Below, one piece after another: positions 1,748 to 26,400 of a stretch of DNA of 64,000 nucleotides. The position numbers were made by a program, and so were the translations under genes. The stretch lies in contig QPMI01000416.1 in NCBI GenBank assembly GCA_004431415.1, positions 248,001 to 312,000 of the forward strand, written 5' to 3'. The notes under the pieces were generated by a model. The model ran no database searches, was not told where the DNA came from, and worked only from the letters and a program-made list of their open reading frames with translations. This DNA comes from Cyanophora paradoxa CCMP329. Its lineage: Eukaryota; Plantae; Glaucophyta. Every line of letters starts with the position of its first letter. The first letter of the stretch is position 1.

Positions 1748-1846
1748 CGATAATAGCGACGGGATTTATTTTTCGATAATATCACGCGATCAGTTCGAGC
1801 GCGCTATTCCTTTTATATTATAGCGGAGCGTTTTCTTTAAGGCGCA

Positions 1847-2786: not shown

Positions 2787-2788
2787 AT

Positions 2789-4018: not shown

Positions 4019-4066
4019 TTTTCTTATGCTATTATCAAACGAAAATAATCTTGACGTAATAACAAG

Positions 4067-4945: not shown

Positions 4946-4980
4946 AGACTCGCGCATTTATTTCTTATTTAAAATAAAAG

Positions 4981-5647
4981 ATGGAAACCAAGCGTGGACG
5001 TGGGAGGCCAAGGAAGATCCCTCTGGATGCTGTCCCTGAGCGAGCTCCTGCAGATATGAGTGCTCGCCGAGTTCAAACTCTCAGTGGAGACGTTGGTACC
5101 TACCCATCGTTAAGCGAGCTGGACGATCGGATGAGATCGATTTCGCTGCTGAAGCTGATCTTAACTCGATCTTCGAGCGGGTGCCAAATTCAAGGACTCG
5201 TAAGACAAATACTAAGCTGTTGAAGAAATTAGCTGATTCTGAGCTGTATGTAAGCGATAATGGGAAAACGAAACGCTTCTTTACCAAGTCGAATGGTAAT
5301 AAACTCACAACGGTTTCTGCTGTTACGGCTAAGCGGCTGATGGAGGGTATTGCTTTGGAAACGAAACTGGATAATCGAATATTGGAGGATAAACCTTCGA
5401 AGCAGAAGATTGAAAAAAGGAAGACCCCGCCGGAGCGGAGATTTCAGTTGTAAAGAAAGAGTCAGGTTCAAGCCTGCTCGAGAGGACCGCTGAGCTCGCT
5501 GAGAGCAATGCGACAGAGATGCCCACCGCTAACAAATCGATCCTGCGGATTGCGAGCAGCTCAGAAGAACCCGTCTCGGTTGTCCCAGTCAAGCCGATGG
5601 CTGCTGGATTTCGGCCTCTGGCTGTGATGCTTCGACGTTGGGAGTAG
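4981..5647 (+). CDS. AT-hook-containing conserved protein, split by two frameshifts
   Basis: KRGRGRPRK AT-hook. Adding one base at GG 5129-5130 and one in the A-run 5413-5418 gives one ORF homologous to 12949-13689 (AKRLMEGIALETKLDNRI vs AKSLVDGIAAETKNENKI; NKSILRIA vs NKSILRVA). Confidence 0.72.
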
Positions 5648-6251
5648 GAAAGTTCAGGCGTAGGAAAGGACGGTCTTCCTCAGAGATATGCTGTAGGGCG
5701 TAGGCATCGCGAGCTCTGGCAGCGGCCTCGGCAGTGGGATAGCTTCCAATGATCTTACGTTTTCCATTGATTGTCAACTGTGCTCTCCACTTGTTATCGC
5801 GTTTATGCAACGACACTCCAATGTAGCCTGATGTATTATTCCGACCAATCATCCCGCTTATCGCACGCGCAGTGTGTGAGACAAGAATCAAGTTCTCATC
5901 CGCATTGTTTAGTCGGTTGCCGTCTTTATGTCTCCAAGAAAAGCCAGGAGGTGCTTTCCCTTTGATATGCAAGTGCAACAACTTCGACTTCGGATCAATG
6001 TTGTTGTCAGCCATGCCAACATAATCTCCTGATGATGACCACATATAATAGCTTTTGAGTTCGGGGTAACGATGGGCTGATACGATAGCGCACTTCCCTC
6101 TCATTTTACTTCCTCCAAGCGGTATTCCAACACAGCCCTCGGGAATTACTGTTTCAACAACACGGTTTTGATTCCACTCGTCTTTGAACATGACCCGGCA
6201 TACACCTGCTCTCATCTCGTATTTAATGGTGTGTGTGTTAACGTTTGCCAT
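5589..6251 (-). CDS. HNH-AP2 homing-endonuclease-like protein
   Basis: HNH-like HKDGNRLNNADENL followed by AP2 domain SGYIGVSLHKRDNKWRAQL...IGSYPTAEAAARARD. Confidence 0.88.
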   Translation of the reverse strand: MANVNTHTIKYEMRAGVCRVMFKDEWNQNRVVETVIPEGCVGIPLGGSKMRGKCAIVSAHRYPELKSYYMWSSSGDYVGMADNNIDPKSKLLHLHIKGKAPPGFSWRHKDGNRLNNADENLILVSHTARAISGMIGRNNTSGYIGVSLHKRDNKWRAQLTINGKRKIIGSYPTAEAAARARDAYALQHISEEDRPFLRLNFPTPNVEASQPEAEIQQPSA

Positions 6252-6621
6252 TCCTCTTTTCTACAAGAAGAGTGCGATCTCTTTAAGTGCTGCATGGGTA
6301 CTGCATAGGCTATAAATAAATCCAGCAGTATGTTTTTTCTTTTACTCTCCGATCATCGATTTATTTATTTTAACGATTTCGAGACTTGGAAATGCTTGAA
6401 AGAAATCGCTCAGAATCGAACTTGAATCGTTGAGAGACAAAGCCATAGCACTACGAGCTGGACCAGGAGGAAGAAGACGATTTTGCGACTAGCTATGACC
6501 CTGAATGCTCTTTATGAGTCAGGTTGCAATCAGACACCGCTAACGTGATGACGAGGGGATGGGGTGGCGGATGACGGCGAAGAGGCCCAGTCCCGTAGAG
6601 TGGGCACAAAGTGGATTTTTT

Positions 6622-7207
6622 TCGTCGATTGTTCAAGGTCAGCAGGAGTTCCATAAGTACTTGAGCGACGTGATGTATGCGAACCTGAAGGACAACTCCA
6701 CAACACTCACGTGGCAGGTGCCGAACGACGTTTGATTAATTTGCTGGCATGCTGGTATCCGCGGCCGACGCGCACGGGATATATATTTGCACCGCAGGCA
6801 GCGGGGTCGGCGCCGTGGGGAGGGTTTGTGGGCGGCTCTGCGTGGTCCTGCGAGCATCTTGTTTTCATTGTGGGCGGGTATTTGGGATCTCTACTTCCAA
6901 CTTCGTCGTCTGGAAGTCCTCAAGAGAACATCCTCGTCCTGGACACGGCCGCCATCGGTGTGCATAAATCCCGCCCGCCGCCGAAAACGTACCGCCTTAA
7001 ACCATCTTAAATTGAAATCCGGAGCCTGCAAGGGCTACTACTTTAGATCTGTCATGTTTCAATTGAATACGCACTGATGCATGGCGCAACATCAGACAAG
7101 ACTGTCTTCTTCCAGATTCCAGCAGGGGCTGCTTTGATCGGATATCATAATCAAGTGGCGCCGCTGCCAGGCGATGTGTGTGCGGTTTACAGACCTCCAG
7201 GAGTAAC
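6622..7207 (+). repeat. Host internal duplication, copy 1 (1750-bp offset)
   Basis: Nearly identical to 8372-8612 joined to 20095-20439. Contains the uninterrupted target site GCA-TCTTGT-TTTCAT of element 2. Confidence 0.92.
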
Positions 7208-8612
7208 ACCGGAGCAAGCTGCAAGCGCAGGCCTTCCAAGGCTAAATGCCATTCAAAGAATAGGTACGATCGGCATTGAATCGATTTTGTGCTGCAATAT
7301 TTAACATCTGGAGGAAACCCGGAAGAAATCCAAAGCGCGGCGCCGACGCCAACGCCGACGCCCGTTCCCTTCAAGGCCTACGTGACGAATCATGCTGCGA
7401 CCGTCGGTGGGACTGAAAGGGGCAGCGTGTTTTCAACCATCAACGACGCTCTCTTCGTTGGTAGGCAGATGTTGATCCTCGTTTTGCCGTGGCGCATTTA
7501 CTTTGTGCGGCTGAGCCTCATTGCTCGCAAGGTTACGAAGGGAACTTTGATCGCTTCGCCAATAATGCATCAACCAGCGCCGCCTACTTTTCATCTCTAT
7601 GCAACTGGTAGCTTTAGCGTTTAATTGACTTCGGCGAATTGCTGCATGTCGGGTTCATCAAATTAAACTGAAGACCGACAGGGGGCGTTACGTCACTCTC
7701 ATGGAGGATCCAGTCACAAAGATCGTGTACGGCTTCACAACCTATTATGATAGATATGGGACGTTCCACGGGATCGCCATTCTGCGATGGAGTGAGTGCC
7801 GAGGGGTTATGAGAACTGATTATGATGGTTAAATTCGGAGATAACGACCGGATGTCTGTTTGCGTAACTGCCACGTGGGATTATCGATATCACCGTTAAT
7901 GCGTTTGCGGCGCTTGCAGACGGGTCGACGTCAGTGCCTTGCCAGACTATTGCTTTTATGCCGTCGGATGTCTCTGTCATTTTTCCACTTGTCGTTCTCT
8001 CTGAGCAAAAGGTATATATGCATTTGCATGAAAGACTTCTTTGCGACCTTTTGACGTCTGAGCGCAATGCTCTCCAGATCTGGATTGCGTTTGGATACAG
8101 ACGAGACATACAAGAAATGACCAACGGGCTCGTCGTGTTCGATCTGGTGTCGCTCTCGTGGTCGACTCGCATCCCAAGGAGCAGCTTCCTCACGACAGGA
8201 CCCAAAGAGCAATATTACACCAACGGCTTCGGTTGGCGTTACAAAGCGATCAAGACATACAGCGGGCCTTTCAGTGCGCGACAGCAAGCTTCCGGAGCGG
8301 TATCCAACGGCCGGCTGTACGTCTACGGAGGGGGGCGTCCGTACACCGAACTGTATTATGATAGTGCGGGGTCGTCGATTGTTCAAGGTCAGCAGGAGTT
8401 CCATAAGTACTTGAGCGACGTGATGTATGCGAACCTGAAGGACAACTCCACAACACTCACGTGGCAGGTGCCGAACGACGTTTGATTAATTTGCTGGCAT
8501 GCTGGTATCCGCGGCCGACGCGCACGGGATATATATTTGCACCGCAGGCAGCGGGGTCGGCGCCGTGGGGAGGGTTTGTGGGCGGCTCTGCGTGGTCCTG
8601 CGAGCATCTTGT
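6622..8612 (+). CDS. Host multi-exon gene segment with Kelch-like repeats
   Basis: Exon-like pieces SARQQASGAVSNGRLYVYGGG and HLVFIVGG, separated by short GT...AG intron-like stretches. Exon boundaries not resolved. Confidence 0.55.
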
Positions 8613-9016
8613 AGCTCAGCACTGCGCCGTGTCTCCAAAAAAATACCCGCAAAAAAATCAAAAACAAATCAGAAAACAAACCATTCCCAGTAACCCAATC
8701 TTGAATATCAGTAAATCTCAGTAAGCCTCAGTAACAAAAATTTAATTAATCGACGTTATATCATAATCTCGATTAATTATATCTTATCGCAGTTATATCT
8801 TTTTTATGCGCCTTGTCTCCAAAACAATTCCCAAGAAAAACAAACCATTCCCAGTAACCCTATTCGTATTCAACAGTAATCTCAGTAAGCCTCAGTAACA
8901 AAAATCGAATTTATCGAAGTTATATCTTAAATCTTATTTATCGAAGTTATATCATTATCTCGATTAATTATATTTAATCGAAGTTATATCCTTTTTATCC
9001 GCCGTGTCTCCCATGA
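8613..9016 (+). repeat. Left terminal inverted repeat of element 2 (404 bp)
   Basis: Reverse complement of 19685-20088 with about three mismatches seen by eye; internally built from ~185-bp direct repeats. Confidence 0.95.
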
Positions 9017-9459
9017 ATAACTAAGTAAGTTTAGTTAAAACCTCGAAAGAAAAACCTCTCATTTTTTACTGTATTTTTTGAACGATTTTTTACTGTATTT
9101 GTTACACTAGAAACAACAATAGAAACGACAATAAAAACAATAGAATTTTAATTGTTTTTGAATCGTATATACGTCAATATATCACTGTAATATATATCAT
9201 ATATATCATAGGAAATCGATTTATAGTCAAACCTATAACATATCAATTTGTGTATATGTGATATATATTCATATATGACGTCATGATGATGATGTATATG
9301 TATCTGATATATATGACACACCGGCTTATTCGGGAGATCATGACGATCACGGCGATGTGTATATTGTCATGATGTATATGTATATATGTGTGACGCAATC
9401 TGATTGGTGTGCTACTTGTTTTGTTGTATCCCCTTCAACTTCTCCCCAGGTTTATATCA

Positions 9460-9730
9460 CAGATAACATCTCAGATAATACCTCAGATAATACCTCAGAT
9501 AATACCTCAGATTATACCTAGCTCAGATAATACCTCAGATGATATCTCAGATATTAAATGTAATTTTGTTCGATTCCCATTGGACTATGCCACAGAGTAG
9601 TATTTACCTCTCTGAGGTATTTACCTTGAGGTATTTATCTCTCTGAGGTATTTACCTCGAGGTATTTATCTCGCCGAGGTATTTACTGCGAGGTATTTAC
9701 CGCGAGATATTTACCTCGAGGTATTTATCA
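9460..9730. repeat. Opposed arrays of ATACCTC / GAGGTAT motifs
   Basis: 12-bp tandem GATAATACCTCA (~9460-9553) followed by repeated GAGGTATTTA(CCTC) (~9597-9730). Confidence 0.85.
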
Positions 9731-9908
9731 CACGTCTTCGGTTTTTTCGATTATCGGCATCTTCAAACGCTTGTATCTCATCACCAGATCATCAAATCGC
9801 AACGTTCTGCATAGCGTTTTGAAGCGCTATGAAAGCTCTACGCAACTATGCTATTTTCTTAGTATTTCAAGCTACCTTATCATACAATATTCTTCAGAAA
9901 TCGACCTT

Positions 9909-10667
9909 TTACACACTGATTGTGGTCATTTCTCGCTGAATCCGAGCCATCTGACTCCTTTTAATTGCTTTTCTCTTCACAAACTTCTTAAAGCCCTTTA
10001 TATCATCATCAGTGAGTACTGCTCGATCAGTATAGGTCTTGATATCATAACCTTGCAGGCTAGCTATGACAGTTTGGTAATTGTAACCCCATAGTCTATG
10101 CAATTCCTTGTAGGTCTTCTTATCCAAACCACCATTGTACTCATCAAAGGCGCAATTGAACTCTTTCTCGTTCCCAAGAATATTGAAAAATACAACGAAC
10201 TCCACATTGCGACGAATGGTAGTAGAAATAGAACACAAACGCTGAACATTAAAGATTACCGAGATTGAATAATGTCTTCCACTCGTTACTAATTTAGATA
10301 ACACAGCCGAATTATGCATATCCAAATTTGAACCTATCATGTCATCGAGTATGATAACTAGGTTATTTCGCTTTTCGTTATTCTCAATTCGTTTCTTTTG
10401 CATACTGATCAATCTCAAAACAATGTTATCATCCCACTCTTCATAGATGTTATCGGGATGGGTGATGTCATTGAATTGTCCAGTAAAAGCTGTTGAACTA
10501 AATATAACGATTTGATCGATCTTGTCACGAAGCTCGTAAAGTAAGTATTTTGTGAACATTGTCTTACCTGTATTGGAGCGACCAACATTCAAAATTCTTG
10601 TCGGGATTCGAACCGTCTTACTCGGATCGAACTCCGGAATATCATCAAGATTTACTGTGTTATCCAT
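9909..10667 (-). CDS. A32/FtsK-like DNA packaging ATPase
   Basis: GRSNTGKT, IILDD, SGRHYSISVIFNVQ, IRRN; close homologue of 2043-2786. Confidence 0.93.
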   Translation of the reverse strand: MDNTVNLDDIPEFDPSKTVRIPTRILNVGRSNTGKTMFTKYLLYELRDKIDQIVIFSSTAFTGQFNDITHPDNIYEEWDDNIVLRLISMQKKRIENNEKRNNLVIILDDMIGSNLDMHNSAVLSKLVTSGRHYSISVIFNVQRLCSISTTIRRNVEFVVFFNILGNEKEFNCAFDEYNGGLDKKTYKELHRLWGYNYQTVIASLQGYDIKTYTDRAVLTDDDIKGFKKFVKRKAIKRSQMARIQREMTTISV

Positions 10668-10747
10668 TACAGTAATAAGATAAAAAACAAAATAAAGTAC
10701 ACACCTACAAATAATTGCGCTTCCTACACTAACAAAAGAAAAGAACT

Positions 10748-11972
10748 TTAGAAGTTCGAGACTTTCAGGGTAGAGATGTTGTAGCCATTAAGTACCATAA
10801 CATTGTGTCGGAGGGCATAGATATCAACCTGAACAGGAGCGGCATCAGTGCATCCGGAAACAGTGAGATCCATGTAACTCGAGCTGCTGTTGAAGAAATC
10901 CTGGTAACCCATAACCGAGTTCCGAAGCGAATCTTTTCCAGACTTGGAAAGAACAATTCCGTAAACATTTCCAGACTCGAATCCGTACGTGGTATTGCCC
11001 ACAGTAACACCCTTGTAGTGAGAAGGAATGTGATTGACAGCAGAGAGGAAACCGGAAATGGGTTTGTTAGATATATCCAGGGAGCGATTGTTGTGGAAGA
11101 TCTGGAACTGATCAATCTTAACAGCAGATTCATGACCGCAGAAATCCGAGTGAGTGTAGGTGTTAAGTTTGTTCACCTCTCGAACAGTCATCAGAATCGA
11201 GTGAACCAGACCAGAAACATTAGCGAGTGTAACCTCAACAGATTCACCAGCATCAGCGGTTTTGAGCGCTCGGGTCTTCTTGTGAATGACCTCTGTGATC
11301 GGGATGCGAATGCCACCTTGTTCGTTCGCCATTTTAAGGAGTGTCTCAGCCTCAGCCGAAGCAATGTTTACGAATTGGCAGATCAGAGAGCAATCCGCAA
11401 AGGTTACAGATCCACCAGCCGGAACTTGGACAATCGCAGCATCACGGAAATCAACCTCGATTGTTGGCATATCGGCTAGCGTACATAATGGGAAATAAGC
11501 TTCTTCCCAGAAAGCAGCGGGGATTCTAACGATGTATTCCATTGCTTCATCTGTGCTTTCACGATCTGTCTCTTTGAAGTAACCGAGAGAAGCATACATG
11601 CTGCTCATGGTAGCGTGATCATTATCGACCAGGGCGTTTACAGTGATCCAATCACCAGGGATAATATACTTGAAACCACCATGAACGAAACGGACCTCAT
11701 TAATAAAAGAAGAACCACCATTGGGAGGGTGCAGGCTACACCACCACCAGTGGCAATCTTGAAATAGAGCGAAACACCAGCAAGGAGTTGCTTGCGAGGT
11801 AGATCAAAGTAAGCGGTATTCTTGAAGCCAAAAGTGTTGCCCCGGGGACGAACTTGCTCGAGGAATGGTTTGTATTTGGGTTGGTTCCGATTTGGAGACC
11901 AGGGGAAAGATAAATTTGATCGGAACCGGGAGTTACGAGGAGTTCCTTCAGGGTAGTTCCAGTGAGTGCCAT
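10748..11972 (-). CDS. Major capsid protein with two apparent 1-bp frameshifts
   Basis: Restoring one base near 11876 and one near 11723 gives MALTGTTLKELLVT...PRGNTFGF...FDLPRKQLL...PGDW...STLKVSNF, colinear with the element 1 MCP. Confidence 0.85.
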
Positions 11973-12024
11973 CTCTTATGTTTAAAATACCAAAAGAAAT
12001 TTTTAAAATGCTTTATTAAACAGA

Positions 12025-12912
12025 ATGACGCGTTACTATCTCAATATTGATTCCAGGGACCGATCGGATGGAACCCCAACTAATTTCACATACAGACTCC
12101 CTTATGCGATCCAAAAGGTCAGAGCCTGTCGAGTAACGAACTTTGAGATGTTTCACAATCTTTACAACCTCTCTGAAGTAGGAACCCTCACCACACAAAC
12201 ACTCGATAATGCTGGGAACCCAAAGAATAGAAACAACGAAGTCCTCCGAGGTGCATATACACCGGATTCACTGGTGAATTATCTGATCGCTCGCATTGGA
12301 TCCCAGCCCTATAATCAAGCGGGTGGCGGAACTTACACTCGCCATTTCTATGTAACCTATGATCCCACAACATTGCTTCTAAGGTTCATGTGTGAGGTTC
12401 CATTCTCAATCACTATGAACACTCAACTCTTAGCCAATTTCTGTGGTTTTGAAAATGCTAACACACTGTACCAATCGAGTCCTCTATCATCTAATGTCAC
12501 AGTTGGAGCCTTTACTTATGCTCACTACATTGATAGTGAAATGCCATTAGATCTACTATTTAATTCCTATTTGCTTCTTCATGTTGATCCACTGAAAGGA
12601 AGATATGTGAGCAATAACAAACGAGATAACAATGCTATCGCGAAAATTGAGATTGACCAAACGGTTGGCAGTCTATTAAAATATGATTCATCGAATAATT
12701 CCATGATCGTTCACGAGCAGAATGGCTTGGTTGAGGTTGAGACTCTAGATGTGAGACTTTCTTACTGGAATGGAGCCACAGCAGACATTACTACCGACTG
12801 GTCGATGACTCTTGAACTGATTACTGAAGATGATAAAGATCTGACGAAAAAAGCATTGAAGAATGTCATAAAAGAGTTGGAGGGACTCTACCTGCCGTTC
12901 TCACGGTCATAG
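12025..12912 (+). CDS. Minor capsid (penton-like) protein
   Basis: NIDSRDRSDGTPTNFTY; homologous to 4067-4945 and likewise divergent from the MCP gene. Confidence 0.8.
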   Translation: MTRYYLNIDSRDRSDGTPTNFTYRLPYAIQKVRACRVTNFEMFHNLYNLSEVGTLTTQTLDNAGNPKNRNNEVLRGAYTPDSLVNYLIARIGSQPYNQAGGGTYTRHFYVTYDPTTLLLRFMCEVPFSITMNTQLLANFCGFENANTLYQSSPLSSNVTVGAFTYAHYIDSEMPLDLLFNSYLLLHVDPLKGRYVSNNKRDNNAIAKIEIDQTVGSLLKYDSSNNSMIVHEQNGLVEVETLDVRLSYWNGATADITTDWSMTLELITEDDKDLTKKALKNVIKELEGLYLPFSRS

Positions 12913-12948
12913 GAAATACTGTAGAATAAATTTGTTTCAATATTACAA

Positions 12949-13689
12949 ATGGCTCGCAAGACTCAACCCAAGAATTTCTTAGCCAAACCAGCCGCTGAAG
13001 CGGATGTTGGCAATGGTGAGAATGGAAGGAACTGGTATAAGAAATCGAAAGGACTCGCTGCATACGGAACTGGTGACCTCGAAAAGGAAGTCCATAAAGA
13101 ACGAAACCAATTCACCCAAGCCACTACGAAAAACAGTAATGATGATAATGCCCTTGTTGACCAAGTCCCACTGAACCGCATGCCCGGAGCCAAACGAGGA
13201 ATCAAGAAAGGACAGTTCAAATCATCCACAAAGGACAAGGTTGCCTCATCATCGACACTGCTGAAACTGCTTGATGGTGGTGAGCGACTCTACTCAACCT
13301 ATTCCGAGAAAGACCATCGCAACCGCTACTTTATTCGTTCAACCACTGGTGGACTGAAATCTGTAACATATCAGTATGCTAAGAGTCTTGTTGATGGTAT
13401 TGCAGCAGAGACCAAAAACGAAAACAAGATCAAGGAACAGCCAATCACAAAGGAAAAGGTTGAGAAGAAACCAGAAGTAACCCATGAAGTTATTCCCGAA
13501 CCTGTTCATGTGGCAAAAGACTCACCTACAGAATTGATTGCAAAGACCATTGAGTATCAAGACTCCAACAAAACGGATTTGCCGGTTCTCAATAAGTCGA
13601 TCCTTCGGGTTGCCACTTCGCAGGCTGATCCAGTCAACTCGATTCCAAATGCTGCCCAATGGTCTCTGGATTCGCCAAGCTTGGTATAA
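12949..13689 (+). CDS. Conserved Lys-rich protein of the capsid module
   Basis: 246-aa ORF syntenic and homologous to element 1 ORF 4981-5647. Confidence 0.75.
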   Translation: MARKTQPKNFLAKPAAEADVGNGENGRNWYKKSKGLAAYGTGDLEKEVHKERNQFTQATTKNSNDDNALVDQVPLNRMPGAKRGIKKGQFKSSTKDKVASSSTLLKLLDGGERLYSTYSEKDHRNRYFIRSTTGGLKSVTYQYAKSLVDGIAAETKNENKIKEQPITKEKVEKKPEVTHEVIPEPVHVAKDSPTELIAKTIEYQDSNKTDLPVLNKSILRVATSQADPVNSIPNAAQWSLDSPSLV

Positions 13690-14056
13690 GACCGGTTATC
13701 GCCGTTAAGGATCAATCTGAATAATATAATTTCTCAAACATTGTTAGCGCTACGTAACCAATCCTATCCCGTAGGCTCAAAACTTCTTCATTTTTATGGA
13801 GGCGTTGTAGAGCGAAGTGAAATATCCATAGGTAAATCACTTTAATCACCTGTTCTACCGGGTTCAGTGGTAGAAACTTGCAGCCGACAAGTGAACCTTC
13901 TGGGTATCGGTGGCTTTATCATTTTTCCAGCATCTTCTTTCGTACTGGATGCTCTGCAATCGGACCAAAATTTGACAGGAGTTTATTCGCTATATACAGA
14001 CAGAAAAACTACTTAAAGATTTCTTAACATATATTAAGAGAGTAGAAAAGGACAAC

Positions 14057-14314
14057 ATGCCAATCAGTGAGGCTCAGAAGCGTGCTACTTATCGTTATCG
14101 TAAAACTGAAAAAGGTCAGGAATATTTGAAAAAGTACAATGCCAGATTTGCAAAGCAAATGCGTGACTTATACCATACTGATGAGTGTTACAGAGCCATG
14201 AAGATCGTTGAGAGTTCCCAGCGTCTCTATGCTTCCAATGCAGTCTGCTTTGTGAAGTATCTCTATGGTGTCCCGTATTCTAACCGTGGTCGCAAATCGA
14301 AATATCTCTGTTAA
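14057..14314 (+). CDS. Small basic protein, possibly DNA-binding
   Basis: MPISEAQKRATYRYRKTEKG; upstream of the polymerase and preceded by AAAATTTGAC and CTTAAAG motifs. Confidence 0.65.
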   Translation: MPISEAQKRATYRYRKTEKGQEYLKKYNARFAKQMRDLYHTDECYRAMKIVESSQRLYASNAVCFVKYLYGVPYSNRGRKSKYLC

Positions 14315-14555
14315 TCGTTTTTCTCAGCGCGATCTGCTCTGAGAAACCCGTGGGAAACGCGCTGGAACCACAAATATAATCATTCTGTTATTTTTAGAGT
14401 TCGATGATCGAGCCAACCCTTTGTTATTTTTATGAATGCCCTCGACTAAATTTATTTTGTTGGAGACTTTTGGTTTTGTCGGTAAAATTTGACGCGAGTA
14501 TAAAAGTATTTAAAGAAAACTTTTGTAGGTATATATTAATAGAGTGAACAAAGAA

Positions 14556-17500
14556 ATGCCTCGACCAAGTAATCGAATTTCGAAAAATTTGCAGGATGAG
14601 ATTCTTGGCTACTACATGCAAGCAAAAGTAGAAGACAAATTGACCCGAGAGCAGGATATCTATTTCTTGAGAGAATTTACTTTCAAAGCAATTAGAATTC
14701 CAAAGTTGATTGATATCAGAGATACACTGAGAGGTATCGTAGAGCCTCGTTTGTATCGCAAGCAGGAGAAGAAGGAGAAGAGGGCTGAGAGAGCCGCTAA
14801 GAATGTTGAGAAGCAAAACAAGAAAGCGGAGCAAGCGAGAGAGCGGAAGCGCTTGACTCCTTTCCAGCAGATGATTGCTAACCTCCGTGAGTTTGTTGAA
14901 AACTCACCTGGAAACATGGTCACCCTGAATGTGAGACTCTTCCGTGAGTTGCAAGAGGGAGAACAAGCCCCTGCAAATGCAAACAGGGTCACTGAGAATG
15001 GTGTGACCTACATTGAATCGAAGAGGCTTCGGAACAATCGCCCCTTTGGTATCCAGTGTACCAAGGCAGCTTTTCTGAATGCTCTCGGTCTGGTTCAATC
15101 CACCTTCAATACGTTCCCATGTGTTGAGGGGACTGTCATTGCTGAATTTATTGCAGCAGTTATTGAGTTTAACTCGACCAATCAAGATTTCCGCTACCTA
15201 AAACTAATTGAGCAAGATACCTACCCCGATATTATGACAATTGAAAGAGTCATCACGACAGATAATGAAGAATACATCCCAAGAAATGAACAAGTCCTCA
15301 GAGACAATACAAACGCTCCAATGATTATTTCGAATTTCATTAAAAACGAAGGGAACCCCCAAGCCACCACATTCAAGGAAATGTTCTTGAAAGGTGATTC
15401 ATTCAAGGTTGGGAAGTGTGTTTTCGATGTCCTCATCAAATGGTTTGGAGGAGCGTTTGAGAAGGCTAAGACCAAAGGGAAATACAAGCGAATCGATTGG
15501 TCTTACAACGGACTCTTTAAGATGGTGAATGGGCGAGACCCTGTTGAAGGAGATGATTGGGGCATTTCTTTCAAGTCCATTTCGGAGAAGGTTCTTGACC
15601 CACTGCGCCTAGGCATGGTTACAATTGGAAAGGACGACAGAACCCCTGTCCCTGAACTGACTTTCCTGCCCAAGACCAGGAACACACACTTGACCCCTTC
15701 TGTTGCATATGTGAAGATTGAGAATGGTCACATGTATTTGTTAAATCACAATATTAAGGCTCTCACACAGTCCTTCAATGGCTCCAAGCCAAAAGATACC
15801 GATGTTCCACTCAGTTCTCGTTACAAGATTATAAAGCAAAGAAGGTTCAAGGAGTTTGCCACAAATCCCGATGACATTCTGAGAATTGTCAGGTCTGACA
15901 ATCCAAAGAACCAATCGAGCATTCGAATCTGCTATGGTGGTTCACTGGATGAACTACTCAGAGAGTTCATTGTGGTGCATAATTATCAGGTCCAACCTGG
16001 GTTCTCCCAAATCGGAAAGGCAACCCATATTCGTTTCACTATTGACGATAAGGATGTTGTCGTGACCCCACCTGGTAACGATACAGATGTGGAAACAGCT
16101 TTCGAGATTAGCTTCAAGAATGCTGAGTACAGAGATAAATTCGAGAAACTAAATCTGGATATGTATAGGTCTCTAATCAACACTTCCAACAAGAGTACTT
16201 ACAATGAGCAAACCATAAATGCATTCAAGAATGGAGTGCAGACTGCCCTTCGTGGTCTCTTTGATGTGGATGAGGAGACCTTTGATGAAATTCGCTATAA
16301 CACAGATATTTACGAGTTCGATATGTGCAAAGCATACCCTTACATTGTAGCCTTGATGATCAAATTCGTTCCTGTTCTCAGCAAGTTCGATGTCTTCAAG
16401 AGTGTGACAATCACAGATGCAGAGCAAATCGAGGAATACAGCTTCTATTACGTGAAACTGGACGACAAATACTTTTTCAAAGCCAAAGACAAGAACGGAA
16501 AGGAGTACGAAGCAAACACCTACAACAGATACAAGAGGATGATCATTGATTCCAAGTACAATGTTGTTCCTGGTTTGGTTCTCAAAAAGCATTTCGAGGA
16601 TTTCAAGGATGACATCTCCATCAAAGCGGTTCTGCGACCTTACAAACTCATTCCCAACCTTGCAGGCAACACAGTTGCTCGAATCTTAGATAGCGACCTC
16701 GATCCTGTTGATAAGAAGCAGATCTTGGTGAGTGCAATTGGGCAAACTGGAAAGCAACGAAATAGCAGAGTGAAAACCACCATTTTCCACAACAGAGACG
16801 ATGCGATCGAGTTCCAGAAACAGAACGGAGGGGAGGTTAAAATTTACCTCTTTGGTGAGACTCTTGCCACTTATGAGGAGACAGAGTTCGTTCTGTGTGA
16901 GGAAGAGATGACCGAACCCCATATCTACTATGTCAATCAGGTAGCAGAAAAGCAGCTCATTGATGGCTTCATGCCATTGTACACTACCCTCTTGTCAATT
17001 ATGAGGATGTGTATGTATGAGAAGTGTGTCGAACTCGCTAAACAGCAAATCCGACCACTCGCTTTGAACACCGATTGTGTTTATGGGATCGCTTATGAAC
17101 CCATTGCCCCAGTGTCATTCGATCGCAATGCCTTTGAGAATATTGGAAACTTCAGTGTGAAATGCTGCCCCAATTTTTCTAAAAAGTTTTCAGGTGAGAA
17201 GAAAGACCTCGAGGCAAAACGAATTCGTTACGGAAAGTTTGAGAGAGCGACTGACTTTGTGAAAATCGAGAACTACAGTTATACCAAACACTCTGTGGTT
17301 GATGAGTATGACACAACCGCGATTTGTGATTTGCTGGCTACACAAAAACGATGGGTTCTTCTCGGAGTAGTTCCGGGAGTTGGAAAGACTTACATGACAG
17401 TTGATTATGGGAAGCGTTTCCAAAATCCCCTCTACATTGTTCCCACCAATAAGCGAGTGAAAGAAATGAAAGAGCAAGGATTGAAAAATGTAAAGACAAT

Positions 17501-18624
17501 CTATGATGCCCTTCACCTTAAAATTGATGAGTCAAACATGGATGAAATTGTAGGAGGAAATGCCTCTGGTTTGGTAGAATTTGATTGCATTGTTATTGAT
17601 GAGATCTGTCAGTTTAAGATTGGGGAACTGGCAGCCTTGGACCACATCATGAATGAGCAGTTCCCAGATAAGGTATACATCGCCACAGGGGACCCGTACC
17701 AAAACCCACCCATCCAAGATATGAGTGTTGACCAAGATGAGTATTACCTCGATATTCTCCATCGCCTGTTCCCCAACGAATTGTTACTCCAAGTGAACAA
17801 GCGACATGAGACTGAGGAAGATCGCAGAAAGGTTGAGCAGATTCGAATCGATTTGTTCGAGAAAGGTTTGAGTGTAAGTGAGGTCCTTGCGAAGTATGGG
17901 TTCAAGGTTGTGGACGAATTGTGTTTACACAAACCGCAAGGGTGCAGAGGTGAACCTAGCCCTTCACAAAATGAACTACGGGGATAATGTTTCCATTTAT
18001 GCTGGCGGCATCAAAGTTGTTGCAAAGACTCGTATTGCAAAGGGCGGAAAAATAGTTCATAATGGATTTGTCTACAAGATTGTCAAGCTCTCAAAGGACA
18101 GTTTCATTATTGCTGACATTGCCAACAAGAAGGATGAGATTGTTCTCAGCAGGGATGCAGTCAAACATTTCGCCCTGGCTTATGCAAACACATGCCATGT
18201 TGTTCAAGGTGATACTATTCGCTGCAAAGGGAACAGGGTAGTTGTGTTCGAAACTGGGGCGCCATTTGTGTCAAAGAAGTGGCTCTATGTTGCTCTCACA
18301 CGAACCACAAGGCTGGATGATGTCGTTATTTACCATGATAATTTCGAAATGGCTCACTGGAAGGTGTGGAAGAGAGAGAATAACGAGAAAATATCGACTT
18401 ACAAGGATCAGGACCGAGCAGCAAACAGACAATTCGATGAGCATGATTACATCACATGGGATTGGATCAAGCAGCGATATGGGAAGCAGTATGGGCATTG
18501 CCTGCGATGCTACAATGCCATGGACTTTGAAGATATTTCGGTAGATCGAATTAATAATGCTGTGGCTCACGTTACCAAAAATTGTTTCCTCTCTCATATT
18601 AAGTGTAACTGCGCCGCCCAATAA
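14556..18624 (+). CDS. Fusion of OTU-like domain, PolB polymerase core, SF1 helicase and C-terminal HNH/Zn-like domain (frameshift near 17920)
   Basis: GKCVFD...NGHMY (Cys/His); PolB motifs FDMCKAYP, KQILVSAIG, LNTDC; helicase motifs GVGKT, IVIDE, GDPYQNPP, NKRH, TCHVVQG, YVALTR; C-terminal CLRC...SVDRINN..H...N...CN. Confidence 0.85.
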
Positions 18625-19683
18625 TGGATAGTGTATTATCATTCAAAAAGTATAGGCAGAAACTGATTAATGAAAAAGTGAGTTTTGATGAAAAAGAGTT
18701 GAAAAAGAAATTCAAAAACTCAGAACTCCAACAAATCTACAAGAAACCAAGGAAACCCAAATCGTTTCTTCGCATAGTGGCAAAGCCTAGATCGTTTCAA
18801 ATCGATATAACATATTTCAGAGGGTTTCAGACTGCCAACAATGGCATTTTCAAAATGCTTAGTTTCGTAGACATACTTAGTCGCAAAGGATTTGTTTATC
18901 CTTTTAAAAACAGCAGTGAGATCCCGAGTATTTTAAATAGGTTCAAGCAAGAAGCAGGCAAAGTTAATGCTCTCTCTGGGATAATGAGTTCTCCCAAGCA
19001 GTATACCGAAATTGGTGCAGTGAACATGGTGTGATGCTTTACACAGATGTGGCAAAGGATGACCACATCACAGTAGGAGATAAACTGGGGATTATTGATA
19101 GGTTCACTAGGACTTTCAAACAGTATCTCAGAAAAACGATGACAGCAAAGGGAACCACGAAATGGATCGATCTACTTAGTGATGTTATTGACTTGTATAA
19201 TAGCAGTCCCCATTCGGCATTGAAAAATGACTCACCGAATGCAGTGTATACAAATGAAGATAAACAGTTATTTATTTACATGAGAGATACTGTTCACAAC
19301 AATCGTGTAAAGGAGGCTGATACTAATCAAGTGAAACCAGGAGACACAGTTCGAGTTTTGCAACCGAAGGGTTATTTGAAAAAGAAGGTGCGCAATTCAG
19401 TCAGAAGGTCTACACTGTTGCAAAGGCTGATAGGAATCGTTTCAAAGTGCTTGAAGATAATGATGGTGAGGAAACGAAAGAAGTGAAGAGGAGATTTAAG
19501 AAGCAAGAATTGCAAAAGGTGAATAAAGATGATATCATAAAGATCCCATCGCAAAAAAGAATTCAGCAGGTTAATAAGACGAATAAAGTGAATCGATTGG
19601 TAGCAAAGGAAGGCATAAAACCCAATCGAAGTAATGTTGTAAGGAGAAGATACAATCTGAGAAGTGGTTTAACGAAACGCTAA
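18624..19683 (+). CDS. Retroviral-like (rve) integrase with two apparent 1-bp frameshifts
   Basis: FQIDI, FVDILSRK, (G)DNEF, GIIDRFTRTFK, YNSSPHS..P, GDTVRV. One extra G at GGG 18978-18980 and one at 19369-19371 join the three ORFs. Confidence 0.9.
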
Positions 19684-19684
19684 A

Positions 19685-20088
19685 TCATGGGAGACACGGC
19701 GGATAAAAAGGAAATAACTTCGATTAAATATAATTAATCGAGATTATGATATAACTTCGATAAATAAGATTTAAGATATAACTTCGATTAATTCGATTTT
19801 TGTTACTGAGGCTTACTGAGATTACTGTTGAATACGAATAGGGTTACTGGGAATGGTTTGTTTTTCTTGGGAATTGTTTTGGAGACAAGGCGCATAAAAA
19901 AGATATAACTGCGATAAGATATAATTAATCGAGATTATGATATAACGTCGATTAATTAAATTTTTGTTACTGAGGCTTACTGAGATTTACTGATATTCAA
20001 GATTGGGTTACTGGGAATGGTTTGTTTTCTGATTTGTTTTTGATTTTTTTGCGGGTATTTTTTTGGAGACACGGCGCAGTGCTGAGCT
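19685..20088 (-). repeat. Right terminal inverted repeat of element 2 (404 bp)
   Basis: Reverse complement of 8613-9016. Confidence 0.95.
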
Positions 20089-23000
20089 TCTTGTTTTCAT
20101 TGTGGGCGGGTATTTGGGATCTCTACTTCCAACTTCGTCGTCTGGAAGTCCTCAAGAGAACATCCTCGTCCTGGACACGGCCGCCATCGGTGTGCATAAA
20201 TCCCGCCCGCCGCTGAAAACGTACCGCCTTAATCCATCTTAAATTGAAATCCGGAGCCTGCAAGGGCTACTACTTTAGATCTGTCATGTTTCAATTGAAT
20301 ACGCGCTGATGCATGGCGCAACATCAGACAAGACTGTCTTCTTCCAGATTCCAGCAGGGGCTGCTTTGATCGGATATCATAATCAAGTGGCGCCGCTGCC
20401 AGGCGATGTGTGTGCGGTTTACAGACCTCCAGGAGTAACGCGCGAGCAACCTAATGACCGGAGCTGGGTCAATGCGATTCAAAAAATAGGTATGGGGAAC
20501 TGTTCGATGGCCAGTCTTAAGATTGCAATATTTACGATGAATCAGAAATCCGATATCTGCATCCCTGCACCGCGGAGACGCCAAGCCCGAGCCCGTCGCC
20601 CAGCCCGTTGCCGACTGCGAGCTCGAGCCCGAGCCCGTCGCCCAGCCCGTCGACGACTGCAAGCCCGAGCCCGAGCCCGTCGCCCAGCCCGTCGCCGACT
20701 GCGAGCCCGAGCCCGAGCCCGTCGCCCAGCCCGTCGCCGACTGCAAGCCCGAGCCCGAGCCCGTCGCCCACCTGCAGCCCGTCGCCAACTGCAAGCCCGA
20801 GCCCGAGCCCGTCGCCGAGCCCGTCGCCGACTGCGAGCTCGAGCCCGAGCCCGTCGCCCAGCCTGTCGCCGACTGCAAGCCCGAGCCCGAGCCCGTCGCC
20901 CAGCCCGTCGCCGACTGCGAGCCCGAGCCCGAGCCCGTCGCCCAGCCCGTCGCCGACTGCAAGCCCGAGTCCGAGCCCGTCGCCCAGCCCGTCGCCGACT
21001 GCGAGCTCGAGCCCGAGCCCGTCGCCCAGCCTGTCGCCGACTGCAAGCCCGAGCCCGAGCCCGTCGCCCAGCCCGTCGCCGACTGCGAGCCCGAGCCCGA
21101 GCCCGTCGCCCAGCCCGTCGCCGACTGCAAGCCCGAGTCCGAGCCCGTCGCCCAGCCCGTCGCCGACTGCGAGCCCGAGCCCGAGCCCGTCGCCCAGCCC
21201 GTTGCCGACTTCGACGCCGAGCCCGAGCCCGTCGCCCAGCCCGTCGCCGACTGCAAGCCCGAGCCCGAGCCCGTCGCCCAGCCCGTCGCCGACTGCGAGC
21301 CCGAGCCCGAGCCCTTCGCCCAGCCCGTCGCCGACTGCGAGCCCGAGCCCGAGCCCGTCGCCCAGCCCGTCGCCAACTGCGAGCCCGAGCCCGAGCCCGT
21401 CGCCCAGCCCGTCGCCGACTGCAAGCCCGAGCCCGAGCCCGTCGCCCAGCCCGTCGCCGACTGCGAGCTCGAGCCCGAGCCCGTCGCCCAGCCCGTCGCC
21501 GACTGCGAGCCCGAGCCCGAGCCCGTCGCCCAGCCCGTCGCCGACTGCGAGCCCGAGCCCGAGCCCGTCGCCCAGCCCGTCGCCGACTGCGAGCCCGAGC
21601 CCGAGCCCGTCGCCCAGCCCGTCGCCGACTGCGAGCCCGAGCCCGAGCCCGTCGCCCAGCCCGTCGCCGACTGCGAGCCCGAGCCCGAGCCCGTCGCCCA
21701 GCCCGTCGCCGACTGCGAGCCCGAGCCCGAGCCCGTCGCCCAGCCCGTCGCCGACTGCAAGCCCGAGCCCGAGCCCGTCGCCCAGCCCGTCGCCGACTGC
21801 GAGCCCGAGCCCGAGCCCGTCGCCCAGCCCGTCGCCGACTGCGAGCCCGAGCCCGAGCCTGTCGGCCATCATTTCGCCGCCAGTAGTTTCGGCATCTGAT
21901 CGTGCGTGTATCTGTCGCAAGTGGTTCCATTCCACAGGTCCGCTTATGCACAGATGCAGACAAGCAGCAGGAGTGCGCGCTGCAAAAATTGGAGACCCGC
22001 TTAATTGGTGTCAACCGCGTGTCCGTTTCATGGAACGCAAGCGGAAATTGCGCAGAATACGCCATTGGGGTCTTTGAGTACAATGCCTCTGCTGTTATGC
22101 AGCTTCCGGCGACATCTGCGAAATGGCTGTCGACAGTCCTTGCAAAAGATGCGGGCGGGTTCGTATTGCGAGCTCAAGATCAGCGTTTGCAATACGGAAT
22201 GGTGTATCTGCTTCGGGCAGTGCTCCATGGGGAGCTTGAGGCCAAGTTGTCGAACTCTTTTCAAACCCGACAGCAACTGCCCCCAGTCTCCACTATCTGC
22301 CAATTTCCTCGTGAGCACACTTGCTGCGGTTGTTTGTTCGCTGGATTACACTGCGTGAATTCGAGTCCGCTTACAATATTTGCAATTGATGCGTATATTT
22401 CGTAGAAGTGTCGCGGGATGGTTCGAACATGCTCTACACTGTGACTGTTACGCAGAAGGGCTCATCGTGGGTCCTTCTATCTTGGGGTAAGCTGGTTCAT
22501 ACGCGAAAAAATGAGACTGAACTCTGGATCTAACGTTGGCCCCGCAGAAAGCTTCGAATTTGCAGAGGCAGCTTTCAGTGCTAGAACTGGGCCATTGGAG
22601 CAGGCCTTGGTGTATCAGTCTGGTTGGGCAGCTCCCAACTTCACTGTAATGCTCACGGGCCGGGATGGAAAACGCTTCGAGTGGACCGATATCTTTTCCG
22701 CATACTGGAACGCGACGGGTCTCCCGACGGGCACGGACTTCGGTGTGAGCGTGCAGCAGGGATGGGTGGGTATGCTCGAATCATTCCCGCTGGATCGCGC
22801 ATTCGTGCGGACACTTTCTGGTACGTATACTTACATTTGCAATTGTAGATCAAGCCATGTGTCGGAATATCAGTATATTCTTGACGGCTGTTGCAGATGC
22901 GGACGCTTCACCCGCTGTCAATATTAATGACACGACGTCAACCGGGGCCGCTTTCGAGATCCCGCTGTCATTCTTTTTCTCGGACGCGGAGAAAGCAGAG

Positions 23001-23417: not shown

Positions 23418-26400
23418 CAGTGGTCTCTTGCATTAGCACACAACACAACTACAATGAGTTTCACATCGCCCAATAAATCTCTCCGACTAGATACTATCGA
23501 GGACCGTCGTATGCTGTGCTTTAGAAAGTACAAAATGAACGAAAGGTTTGAAGGTTTCGTGTCTAGATATCTAGCTAAGGAGGTTTCTACCTAATACTAA
23601 TGATGTGGAAGCTAGCTGTATCGATTTCTAAACTAACCTAAACTCCCGGCTACGAGGTCCTATCTCTACAAAAGACTCCCAATCATGGTACGTCCGCCGC
23701 CAGCGCTGCCCAAGGGCCTCGCCGCGCCGTGTGCCAGGCTCCTCGCCAGCCCCAGTAGATTGGGCTACTGGCCGCCTCCTGCCGTCGCCTCCGCCGCCTC
23801 CAGTTGTTGGTGTTGCGTCCTCCGGCCCCGCCCCCAGACCGCAATCCCCCCGTGTCTCCCTCTAGCGCGGGCGCGCCCTTTTTGTGCCCACGCCCCAAGC
23901 ATACCTGTTCGTATGGTCGTACACTTGCATGGCCGCCGAAGCCCGGACCCAGCCGTAGTCGTCTGGCGGGCAGCTCAGGTGTGAGAGGGCTAGGGTTTCC
24001 CCGCCCTGGTGGCGGGACTCGAGGGCACCGCACTCCCTGCAGCGTTCCCGCTGCCGGGGCTCCGGATCCGCGCGCTTCCTGCGAGCGTTGCCAGCCGTAT
24101 CGTCAGGCGGCGCGTCGGCCTCGCGGTCGCGCGCCCCAGTGCGCTTCGCCTTGGCGCGACGTTCTTTCATGACCTTCGTGATCCGCACGCCTTCTCCCAC
24201 TCCGCGTACGCCTGGCATCTGGCGGCCCACGTTTTATGGGCCTGCTCGCCTATGGCCGTCGCCAGCTTGCGCACGACCTGGGCAGCTTTCTTGGCGTCCG
24301 GGACGGTCTCGCGGACCATGTCGGTGAGGCCCGCCGGGGCAGCCCCCGTAGCACGCACATCTGCGCCTGCCGTTCAGCCGCCGTGAGCGTCGGGTCGTTG
24401 ACTCTCGTGACCTTCAGGGATCTGGAGAGCGCGTGTGGCACTGATCGCTTCTGCGCGCCTTCGAGGGCCTCGCTGACCGTCGCTGCGATGCGTGCTTCCG
24501 CAGCGGTGCGCGCCTCCGTCGCCACCGCGCTGGGGCAGGTGAGGACGTGCTCCAGCGTCTCCTCGGGCCCAATCACAAGCCGGGGCCGGCCTTCGCCATC
24601 GATTTCCCGCGTGCTGCAGAGCGCACAGAGTCCTGCCGGGTTCACTTCGCTGTAGAGCTCGGGCGCGTCTCGCTTGCGGACGAGGGCCGTCGCCACCGTA
24701 CCCATCACGAGTTTCATGTGCGTACCCGGAAGCAGTTGCTCTCCCGGCTCACCCCGACTCGGCGGGCCCCATAGCCATCTGATCGTACACGGCCCCATGG
24801 TCCACTGGCAGCCGTAGCCACTCCCCGGCCTTGAGCTGGTTCGTCCACGCGAAGTGCGTGTGGTGCGCGTGAAGCACAGCGGCGTGCCGCCGGGGGTCGC
24901 CTTCGACTCGCCTGACTATCCCGGTCGGTCCTCGATCGTCAGCACTGCCGGCATGCTGAACTCGGGCGGCAGGAAGATGTTCTCGTCCAGTTCCTCCTGT
25001 TCCAGGTGCGCGCCTTGATCGGCCGCTCTGTCGGCGGCGTCGTTTAGCTCGTGCATATCCTCGTCGCTGTGCGCCTTGACCTTGATAACCGCAGCCGGCC
25101 GCTGCCGATCCCGTCCCATCACCAGGGCACGGAACTTGGACCACGCGTACAGCTCAGCGCTGCACGTGTTCCGGATGTAGTCTCGCATGTGCATATCGTG
25201 CGCATTCAGCACGAACTTATCGAACCACGTGCAGACGTTCTGACTGTCCGTGTGCAGGCGCACCCCCTGCGCCGCGAGCACGTCGGCGACGATCGCAGCC
25301 TGGAGCTCAGCCTTGTTGTTCTCTTGAAGCCCGCGCAGCCTGCCAACGTACGTGCCTGCCCATTCCGGGTGGTTCGCCACGGTCCCGTCCGGGAACTCAG
25401 CCGGGCTCACGACGCCGAGGCCCGCGTGCGCCCCTTCCGTTTGACCCTTCTTCAGGCTCCCGTCCGTCCATATCCACTGCTCGAGTTTCCCGGGCGACGG
25501 CCGAGCTTCGCGAGTTCCGCCTCTTCGATCTGCTCCCAATTTGCCAGCATGTGCTGCCAGTAAACGGTGAGGGTGACCCCTTCCTGCGCCGCCCGGAGTC
25601 CCAGTGGCGCGGCGCTCCGCCCGCGTAGTAGAGTTCGCTCTGCTCTGCTGAATCTGACACAGGTTGTGCCTCGTCCCGCGGCTCGGCGCCCGGCGTCGCC
25701 GCCGCAGCCACTTCCAGCGCGGCCTGCAGCTCAGCCTCGGCCTCCGGGCTCAGCTGTTCGCGGAGGAAGCGCTCGTCACCATCCTGTACGGCTTTCACGC
25801 GGGCCTGGAGAAGCAGCGCCCTGCGTTTCTCGTCGTCTTGCGTGCGCAGGCCCGGGTCGTAGTACTCCAAGGTCGGTCGCAGGGCGACCTGCTTGCGCCC
25901 GCGCTTCGACTTCGTCTCCTGACCCGCCGCTACCGCCGGCGTCTCCTCCGTCGGTTCGCCTTCCAAGGCGAGGAGGGTATCCTCCTCCTCCCACCAGCCC
26001 TTCCGTGCGTCCACGAGCCGTCGCACTGACTCATTTCGGGGCAGCGCGATGGAGCATTGCGCGTGCACCGGTCGTCATGGTGCCAGTACTGCTTCCCTGT
26101 CCCCTGCACCGCCGTGTACGTGCTCGTCCGCCCCTCTATTTCGGGGTGCCGGCAGTGACCGTCGCACCGGCAGTAGAGTCCCTCTTTCTCCGCGTCGGGG
26201 TCCGCGCCCTTCGGCACCGGCACCCAGTGCTCCAGCAGGTACTCCGACGCTAATATGCTGCCCGTCTCGGATTTGAACGTAACGACTCGCCCCACGTGGG
26301 CTCGGCAGATTCATCGTGCAGTTGCTCCGCCTCAAATACGGCTACGAACGCGTCCTTTGCCACTTCACCTTCCGGGCCCGCCAGGGAGCGAGGCCATGGC

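What the first reader, a model, noticed from the sequence alone, without database searches (positions are those of the whole stretch)
14556..18624. Single-chain replicase: OTU-like + PolB core + SF1 helicase + HNH-like tail
Seen: ~1350 codons with a Cys/His pair (GKCVFD, NGHMY), deviant PolB motifs (DMCKAYP, KQILVSAIG, LNTDC instead of DTDS), no recognisable 3'-5' exonuclease motifs, a RecD/Pif1-like helicase motif set and a C-terminal CxxC...DR.NN..H...N...CN module. Established: PolB-SF1 fusions have been reported in some PLVs. Inference: the helicase may substitute for intrinsic strand displacement and the enzyme may lack proofreading; the full four-domain architecture is worth characterising.
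Basis: partly seen in the sequence, partly recalled or inferred. Interest (0 to 1): 0.75.

Follow-up and report, generated by a model that had tools for sequence, protein, structure and literature searches.

The report
Known virus polymerase-helicase fusion, split copy
This is an already described all-in-one replication gene (predicted protease, DNA polymerase, helicase and nuclease-like tail) of a small virus inserted in a likely eukaryotic genome, and this copy is split into two reading frames where sister copies carry 20 more bases.

Summary
The motifs are real, but the gene is not one frame here: it breaks near 17921. Contigs from 4 of 4 runs laid are 20 bases longer there, and 114 of the 150 best relatives are single chains of 1,150-1,650 residues. 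It is a Tlr1-like helicase (pPolB-S1H): vOTU-like Cys/His, protein-primed PolB palm without proofreading residues, SF1B helicase, HNH tail. This architecture, the missing exonuclease and helicase compensation are already in print (PMC5499653, PMC11071308); the scan also met it on other DNA (e1-7145383). The gene sits in an 11.5-kb Polinton-like element with 404-bp inverted repeats, a 6-bp target duplication proven by an empty-site copy, integrase, packaging ATPase and likely capsid genes. Additions: catalytic Cys, His, motif B Lys and motif C Asp are kept in 114 of 114 relatives (motif A Asp 113); at least 44 model residues overlay phi29's exonuclease domain, suggesting a dead remnant; the tail is PacI-type, with a conserved His (99 of 114) where PacI has its general-base Tyr100, so it may still cut DNA. 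New member of a known kind; low interest.

The parts
8613..20088 (.). Integrated Polinton-like element, 11,476 bp, ends AG...CT, 40.5% GC
   Evidence: flank 20089-45000 is 60% GC
8613..9016 (+). Left terminal inverted repeat, 404 bp
   Evidence: 3 mismatches in 404 to the right arm
19685..20088 (-). Right terminal inverted repeat, 404 bp
8607..8612 (+). 6-bp target-site duplication, left copy (right copy 20089-20094; single copy at the empty site near 6857-6862)
9909..10667 (-). A32-type genome packaging ATPase
   Evidence: Pox_A32 E 1e-15
10748..11972 (-). Putative major capsid protein, broken near 11722 and 11877 in this copy
   Evidence: 60% identical to the intact 409-aa gene 2789-4018; capsid identity inferred from size and position, no family hit
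12025..12912 (+). Putative minor capsid (penton) protein
   Evidence: 40% to 4067-4945; identity inferred, no family hit
12949..13689 (+). Unknown ORF, 246 aa
14556..15275 (+). N-terminal helical region and alpha/beta domain (residues 1-240), candidate terminal-protein part
   Evidence: model; role from PMC11071308, not tested
15333..15785 (+). vOTU-like protease domain; Cys288 (15417), His392 (15729)
   Evidence: 114 of 114 invariant; Cys at a helix start, His at a strand start
15843..16190 (+). Predicted catalytically dead remnant of the exonuclease fold (about residues 430-545)
   Evidence: sequence profiles gave no support
16233..17225 (+). Protein-primed family B polymerase core: motif A Asp589 (16320), motif B Lys721 (16716), motif C Asp840 (17073)
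17295..17921 (+). SF1B helicase, first part (Walker A near 17364-17390, Walker B 17595)
17919..17923 (+). Frame break: this copy is 20 bases shorter than bridging contigs of sister copies
17920..18336 (+). SF1B helicase, second part with SH3-like 2B domain and motifs V-VI
   Evidence: RecD2 Z 12.0, rmsd 1.9, 128 aligned
18343..18624 (+). PacI-type His-Me finger tail: Asp 18544, Arg 18547, His 18568, Asn 18607; zinc site CxxC/HxxC
18624..19683 (+). rve integrase, broken near 18977 and 19371 in this copy
   Evidence: rve_3 E 0.002 (below cut-off); relatives L004, L009 carry Pfam rve downstream

Best explanation
The region is the replication gene of an integrated Polinton-like virus, a Tlr1-like pPolB-S1H fusion, broken into two frames in this assembly while sister copies are 20 bases longer and likely intact; its product would cut off its own N-terminal primer part with the Cys/His protease, would copy the linear genome from the inverted-repeat ends without proofreading, would be helped by the fused helicase running 5'-3' along the displaced strand, and likely binds and possibly nicks DNA with its PacI-type tail. 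Shown: motifs, their conservation, predicted folds, element ends, target duplication, the break. Inferred: every enzyme activity, self-cleavage, protein priming, the helicase's strand, the tail's role. The neighbouring rve integrase is the likely maker of the 6-bp duplication; ATPase and putative capsids would package the genome.
For: 482 proteins at E<=0.001; 114 of the best 150 are 1,150-1,650-aa single chains, and 134 of 150 also match the second frame. Invariance in 114 relatives: Cys 114, His 114, motif A Asp 113, motif B Lys 114, motif C Asp 114, Walker A Lys 114. Motif C Asp aligns with phi29 Asp458, one of its two catalytic carboxylates. Model pLDDT 81, pTM 0.77; best Foldseek hit phi29 polymerase E 2e-8; Z 15.0, rmsd 4.9, 357 aligned, and Dda helicase Z 15.5, rmsd 3.5, 190 aligned. 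Best viral-library match spans the whole model (E 8e-24, unnamed), next are bidnavirus-like and mavirus pPolBs. 20 of 25 listed differences between this copy and sister contigs in frame 1 fall on third codon positions (p 2e-6). Published description matches and the B. natans PLV tail has the same motif. Element anatomy.
Against: No activity was measured here and none was found in print for this family (speak of prediction). The first motif C Asp is absent in 114 of 114, the motif B Tyr position is a non-aromatic residue here, and this copy has Val where 103 of 114 have Asn. No OTU structure appeared among fold hits of the whole model (the domain was not folded alone). Profile comparison with phi29-like polymerases was not significant. 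This copy has at least five frame breaks in three genes, so it may itself be dead. The 25 differences are the best-supported rows shown of 285, not all.
Confidence: 0.8

Rival explanations
1. The polymerase part is inactive and only a scaffold; the protein is a helicase that recruits a host or helper-virus polymerase (the 2016 reading).
For: First motif C Asp lost in 114 of 114; no proofreading residues; PMC5499653 argued inactivation.
Against: Both catalytic Asp positions and motif B Lys are invariant or nearly so at 32% mean palm identity; the same authors later predicted activity because active mavirus, pipolin and plasmid enzymes lack the same Asp.
Confidence: 0.1
2. This particular copy is a real pseudogene: the 20-base loss and the other breaks are mutations in the genome, not assembly errors (compatible with the best explanation for the family).
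For: A 20-base loss is less typical of read error than single-base slips; contigs drop rare variants, so a one-copy lesion would not be seen; about 2-3% differences from sister contigs.
Against: 6 of the 7 single-base deficits that I examined lie beside a run of the same base, as long-read consensus errors do; inverted repeats differ at only 3 of 404; none of 4 runs showed a contig with the window's form across the break.
Confidence: 0.35
3. The tail is a selfish or decayed homing endonuclease with no role in replication (the published reading), and the Arg at the usual His site makes it unable to cut.
For: His at the canonical site in 0 of 104 tails; 10 of 114 relatives lack a full tail, six ending soon after the helicase; tail identities track the palm less well (rho 0.31) than equal-length helicase windows do (0.44-0.56); PMC11071308 calls these homing endonucleases.
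Against: Tail present in 104 of 114, as conserved as palm and helicase (0.32 mean identity); Arg plus His together in 97 of 104 with PacI's spacing in 100-101 of 104; PacI is an active enzyme with Arg93-Tyr100-Asn113; the 95-residue C-terminal tail leaves no room for an intein splicing domain (sequence; inference).
Confidence: 0.4
4. The break is a programmed frameshift that makes two products.
For: The two frames overlap by 110 bases.
Against: The break falls inside the helicase, about 9 residues are missing against relatives, sister contigs are longer there, relatives are single chains.
Confidence: 0.02

Closest known systems
Tlr1-like helicases / pPolB-S1H fusions of Polinton-like viruses and transpovirons (PMC5499653; PMC11071308 = PMC11161782)
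   Same: Order N-terminal domains - vOTU - palm - SF1B helicase - HNH; 1,000-1,400 aa; no exonuclease motifs; first motif C Asp replaced; Cys/His kept.
   Different: Nothing defining. This copy is frame-broken; a remnant of the exonuclease fold is predicted here, which those papers state for mavirus but not for this family in the parts I read.
PLV of Bigelowiella natans (Bnat26)
   Same: Tail with the same CxxC...DR...H...N...CxxCN pattern and a PacI match (supplementary figure S4 of PMC5499653); linear element with inverted repeats, capsids and ATPase.
   Different: Window element is only 11.5 kb and has an rve integrase directly downstream; third zinc ligand is His here (1 of 114 relatives).
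Tlr1 element of Tetrahymena
   Same: Gene set: capsids, ATPase, rve integrase, fused helicase, no maturation protease.
   Different: Tlr1 carries GIY-YIG, not HNH, at the C-terminus.
PacI restriction endonuclease (His-Me finger group 20)
   Same: Fold match of the tail (Z 6.5, rmsd 3.1, 86 aligned); Asp-Arg at the usual Asp-His site; spacing to loop base and Asn identical.
   Different: His instead of Tyr at the loop base; fused to a helicase; PacI His42 was not mapped; activity untested.
OmPLV helicase-pPolB fusion (PMC12721341)
   Same: Helicase SF1 and pPolB in one chain in an endogenous PLV.
   Different: Opposite order and a complete exonuclease domain; independent origin according to that paper.

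Membership tests
Tlr1-like pPolB-S1H fusion | C-terminal SF1B helicase | tested here: met
   (Pif1 9e-18, RecD2, Dda)
Tlr1-like pPolB-S1H fusion | Upstream protein-primed PolB palm with motifs A, B and a motif C lacking its first Asp | tested here: met
Tlr1-like pPolB-S1H fusion | No exonuclease catalytic motifs | tested here: met
   no invariant acidic column; best D/E column 88 of 114; a fold remnant is predicted
Tlr1-like pPolB-S1H fusion | vOTU domain with catalytic Cys and His before the palm | tested here: inconclusive
   Cys and His invariant and in helix/strand positions as described, but no OTU structure among hits of the whole model
Tlr1-like pPolB-S1H fusion | TPR1 and TPR2 subdomains | tested here: inconclusive
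   long strands 735-744 and 789-800 between motifs B and C; phi29 match spans the region; no residue map available
Tlr1-like pPolB-S1H fusion | Terminal-protein-like domain before vOTU | tested here: inconclusive
   alpha/beta domain at about 120-240, no fold hit; not folded alone
Tlr1-like pPolB-S1H fusion | One polypeptide of 1,000-1,400 aa | tested here: inconclusive
   not met by this copy as assembled; met by 114 of 150 relatives and indicated for sister copies
Tlr1-like pPolB-S1H fusion | Tree placement with Tlr1, Bnat and transpoviron proteins | not tested
Polinton-like virus with rve integrase | Terminal inverted repeats and 6-bp target duplication | tested here: met
Polinton-like virus with rve integrase | A32 ATPase | tested here: met
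Polinton-like virus with rve integrase | Double jelly-roll major capsid and penton | tested here: inconclusive
   no family hit; homologues beside A32 genes in two other elements of the window; not folded
Polinton-like virus with rve integrase | rve integrase | tested here: inconclusive
   rve_3 E 0.002, below cut-off, gene in pieces; piece matches the Pfam rve protein of L004 at 5e-8
Canonical Polinton pPolB (TP-vOTU-EXO-PALM) | Active exonuclease domain, no fused helicase | tested here: not met
PacI-type His-Me finger (group 20) | Arg at the canonical His site, metal Asp and Asn | tested here: met
   Asp-Arg-His-Asn in 66 of 104, Arg in 98 of 114
PacI-type His-Me finger (group 20) | Tyr in the omega loop as general base | tested here: not met
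   His in 99, Tyr in 2 of 114 at that position; works like it at best
PacI-type His-Me finger (group 20) | DNA cleavage | not testable with these tools
   needs an assay

The most novel reading that the evidence does not exclude
The tail is not a passenger homing endonuclease but a conserved, active nuclease with a third catalytic layout (Arg at the usual His site, His in the loop where PacI has Tyr100), tethered to the helicase to process the element's ends or replication intermediates; and the polymerase keeps a dead exonuclease remnant as a wall of its template tunnel, so the helicase assists rather than replaces strand displacement.
Probability: 0.3. Interest if true: 0.55.

Novelty: new member of a known kind. 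Interest (0 to 1): 0.27.

Why it matters
The architecture itself is known, so the finding adds a member, not a kind. It matters modestly because no protein of this family was found with measured activity in the papers searched, and the 114 single-chain relatives give a sharp list of residues to test whether the polymerase, protease and tail are active. If the tail cuts DNA with a loop His, it would widen the known chemistry of His-Me finger nucleases and change the reading of these tails from parasites to parts of the replication machine.

Tried and rejected
Word-indexed protein search with residues 150-1120 found nothing; viral contigs held no close relative of the protein or of the putative capsid; single-sequence PDB search gave only chance hits. 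No whole genome is held, so copy number and host were not determined; read depths are not copy numbers. The protein Atlas gave no result. Profile comparison of residues 405-575 with phi29-like exonuclease domains scored no better than three control regions, so the remnant rests on structure alone. A tail-only profile of 26 sequences found no solved structure; the PacI profile matches are weak (E 0.21, E 3) and Z 6.5 is under the tool's level for a clear match (rank 31). My first reading that the tail is nuclease-dead because of Arg for His was dropped after the PacI mapping. I thought the PacI likeness might be new; it is in supplementary figure S4 of PMC5499653. No RNA holder listed; X20, a guessed RNA run, covered 11 of 30 bins with low-depth divergent contigs and was not used. 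No inverted repeats of note in L010-L013. The PacI structure paper was not held. Supplement of bioRxiv 10.64898/2026.06.19.733378 and 10.64898/2026.10.13.758929 were not seen and may bear on the capsid group.

Full report
Observation. They are spread over two frames: 14556-17987 and 17878-18624, with the switch near 17921. Pfam sees the helicase halves on either side (AAA_19 E 7e-7; UvrD_C_2 E 7e-4). A search of 1.84 billion representatives with the first part gave 482 hits at E<=0.001; of the 150 listed, 114 are 1,150-1,650 residues long and I used these as the full-length set, dropping 36 shorter ones. 134 of the 150 also match the second part. The spacer across the break is 40 residues here and 43-58 in the 114.

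Is the break real? Nineteen DNA runs of one coded organism hold at least half of the element's words. In 4 of 4 runs laid on 17560-18120, the only contig shown across 17902-17920 is 20 bases longer behind 17921 and otherwise identical over 121 letters; that length is in register with a single frame. On the wider stretch, three DNA runs also differ from the window by single bases at the capsid and integrase breaks (12 of 16 rows shown). I examined the 7 single-base deficits at 11722, 11877, 13654, 13691, 13961, 18977 and 19371; 6 lie beside a run of the same base, which suggests long-read consensus errors (inference). 20 of the 25 listed substitutions in frame 1 are at third codon positions, as expected under purifying selection; these are the best-supported rows only. 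I put the chance that this copy is truly dead at about one in three.

The element. 404-bp inverted repeats (8613-9016, 19685-20088; 3 mismatches) bound 11,476 bp at 40.5% GC. A 6-bp duplication flanks it, and an uninterrupted copy of the target lies near 6857 in the same window. Genes: A32 ATPase, putative major and minor capsid genes (homologues beside A32 genes in two other elements of the window; no family hit, not folded), two unknown ORFs, the replicase, and an rve-type integrase starting right at its stop. PMC12220804 (passages and section 11 seen) ties rve integrases to 6-bp duplications and notes helicase genes directly upstream of rve in cryptophyte PLVs. The flank carries retroelement pieces; a eukaryotic host is inferred, not determined.

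The protein. The model of residues 1-1121 from 57 sequences has pLDDT 81 and pTM 0.77. Its best solved-structure match is phi29 polymerase (E 2e-8; Z 15.0, rmsd 4.9, 357 aligned over 430-884) and, for 914-1121, SF1B helicases (Dda Z 15.5, rmsd 3.5, 190 aligned). The second part (pLDDT 91.6) matches RecD2 over 1-139 (Z 12.0, rmsd 1.9, 128 aligned) and PacI over 142-234 (Z 6.5, rmsd 3.1, 86 aligned, rank 31). The family profile finds Pif1, RecD and Dda. In 114 relatives Cys288, His392, Lys721, Gly729 and Asp840 are invariant and Asp589 is kept in 113; the first motif C Asp is never present (Lys 71, Asn 20, Arg 13, His 7). Asp840 aligns with phi29 Asp458, which with Asp249 supplies the catalytic carboxylates (PMC4974454, passages).

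Exonuclease. No acidic column between His392 and motif A is invariant (best 88 of 114 D/E), so proofreading is unlikely. Yet three phi29 rows align 354-356 residues within chain 5/6-499; since the exonuclease domain is residues 1-189, at least 44-46 pairs lie in it. Sequence profiles did not support this. In phi29 the exonuclease domain with TPR2, palm and fingers forms the tunnel that forces unwinding, so a remnant could keep that role (inference).

Tail. Present in 104 of 114; Arg at the usual His site with a later His in 97 of 104; His at the usual site in 0; spacing Asp-to-His 8 in 101 and His-to-Asn 13 in 100. The profile match to PacI 82-116 is ungapped and puts Arg, His and Asn on PacI 93, 100 and 113. 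PacI's site is H42-R93-Y100-N113 (PMC3765158, passages) and its Tyr replaces the His base (PMC5714182 and PMC4081073, passages); the PacI row shows the same spacing directly. So the tail has the parts for catalysis with His in the loop. Against: weak scores, no hit for a tail-only profile, best phage family endonuclease VII for 24 of 26 members and none for the window's own tail, looser tracking of the palm (rho 0.31 against 0.44-0.56), although the nearest relative by palm and helicase ranks in the tail's top five in 57 of 104 cases. This copy has His for the third zinc Cys; active DraIII has such a site (PMC3996161, passages).

What is known. PMC5499653 (parts 1-3 of 5 and supplement search) describes Tlr1-like helicases: polymerase domain without exonuclease, SF1B helicase, C-terminal HNH in PLVs, with a PacI match in figure S4. 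PMC11071308 (sections 10, 11 and passages; supplement search of PMC11161782) adds TP and vOTU, predicts an active polymerase, and proposes that helicase and exonuclease compensate for each other. PMC12721341 (parts 1-3 of 7) describes the reverse-order fusion. Two 2026 preprints (passages) treat polB-SF1 genes and replicase swaps as common. Searches for a measured activity or for the loop-His reading found none, which does not exclude closed papers. The scan noted the same kind elsewhere (e1-7145383); no look-alike by sequence.

Mechanism. Shown: anatomy, conservation, folds as predicted, integration footprint. Inferred from phi29 and the cited papers: the protease would release the N-terminal primer part, the palm would start at each inverted-repeat end, and an SF1B helicase, which moves 5'-3', would travel on the displaced strand in the direction of the fork. 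The tail likely binds DNA and may nick it. Confidence 0.8 for the overall picture, about 0.3 for an active tail with a role in replication.

Verdict. New member of a known kind, interest 0.27. The most novel reading left open is an active tail with a loop His plus a structural exonuclease remnant (probability 0.3, interest 0.55).

Noticed in passing
window 2-7217 and 8372-8612 + 20089-20449: The element is inserted in a second virus-like element. A 600-bp stretch (6622-7217) recurs at 8372, interrupted by the insertion, which supplies the empty site.
   Followed up: partly
window 2-4945: The outer element has capsid-module genes close to the inner one (putative major capsid 60%, penton 40%, ATPase 45%) but a different replicase start (2-1252, 32% to 56447-58177), a likely replicase swap between capsid relatives; such swaps are described in 10.64898/2026.06.19.733378.
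   Followed up: partly
window 46310-54989: A third element with inverted repeats, A32 ATPase, putative capsids and a D5-type primase-helicase piece.
   Followed up: no
window 55411-64000: A fourth module: split polymerase with an endonuclease VII-like insert and a motif C that keeps both Asp (56447-59726), three paralogous ORFs, one with a C1q domain.
   Followed up: no
window 5589-6251: HNH_3-AP2 endonuclease gene.
   Followed up: no
window 20309-21900: Long 42-bp tandem array that reads as Ser-Pro repeats.
   Followed up: no
window 24916-28267: Retroelement pieces: RNase H and reverse transcriptase on the minus strand.
   Followed up: no
runs X1, X9, X10, X13 at window 17583-17735: Long contigs of at least two more divergent replicase families match only the helicase motifs, so organism A seems to hold several such elements.
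   Followed up: no
L004 6156-13369; L009 684-5596; L017 13-1651: Relatives pair the fusion with an rve integrase downstream (L004, L009); L004 also has an adenain-like protease and a double jelly-roll capsid; L017 has a similar helicase end and tail, broken, facing an rve gene.
   Followed up: partly
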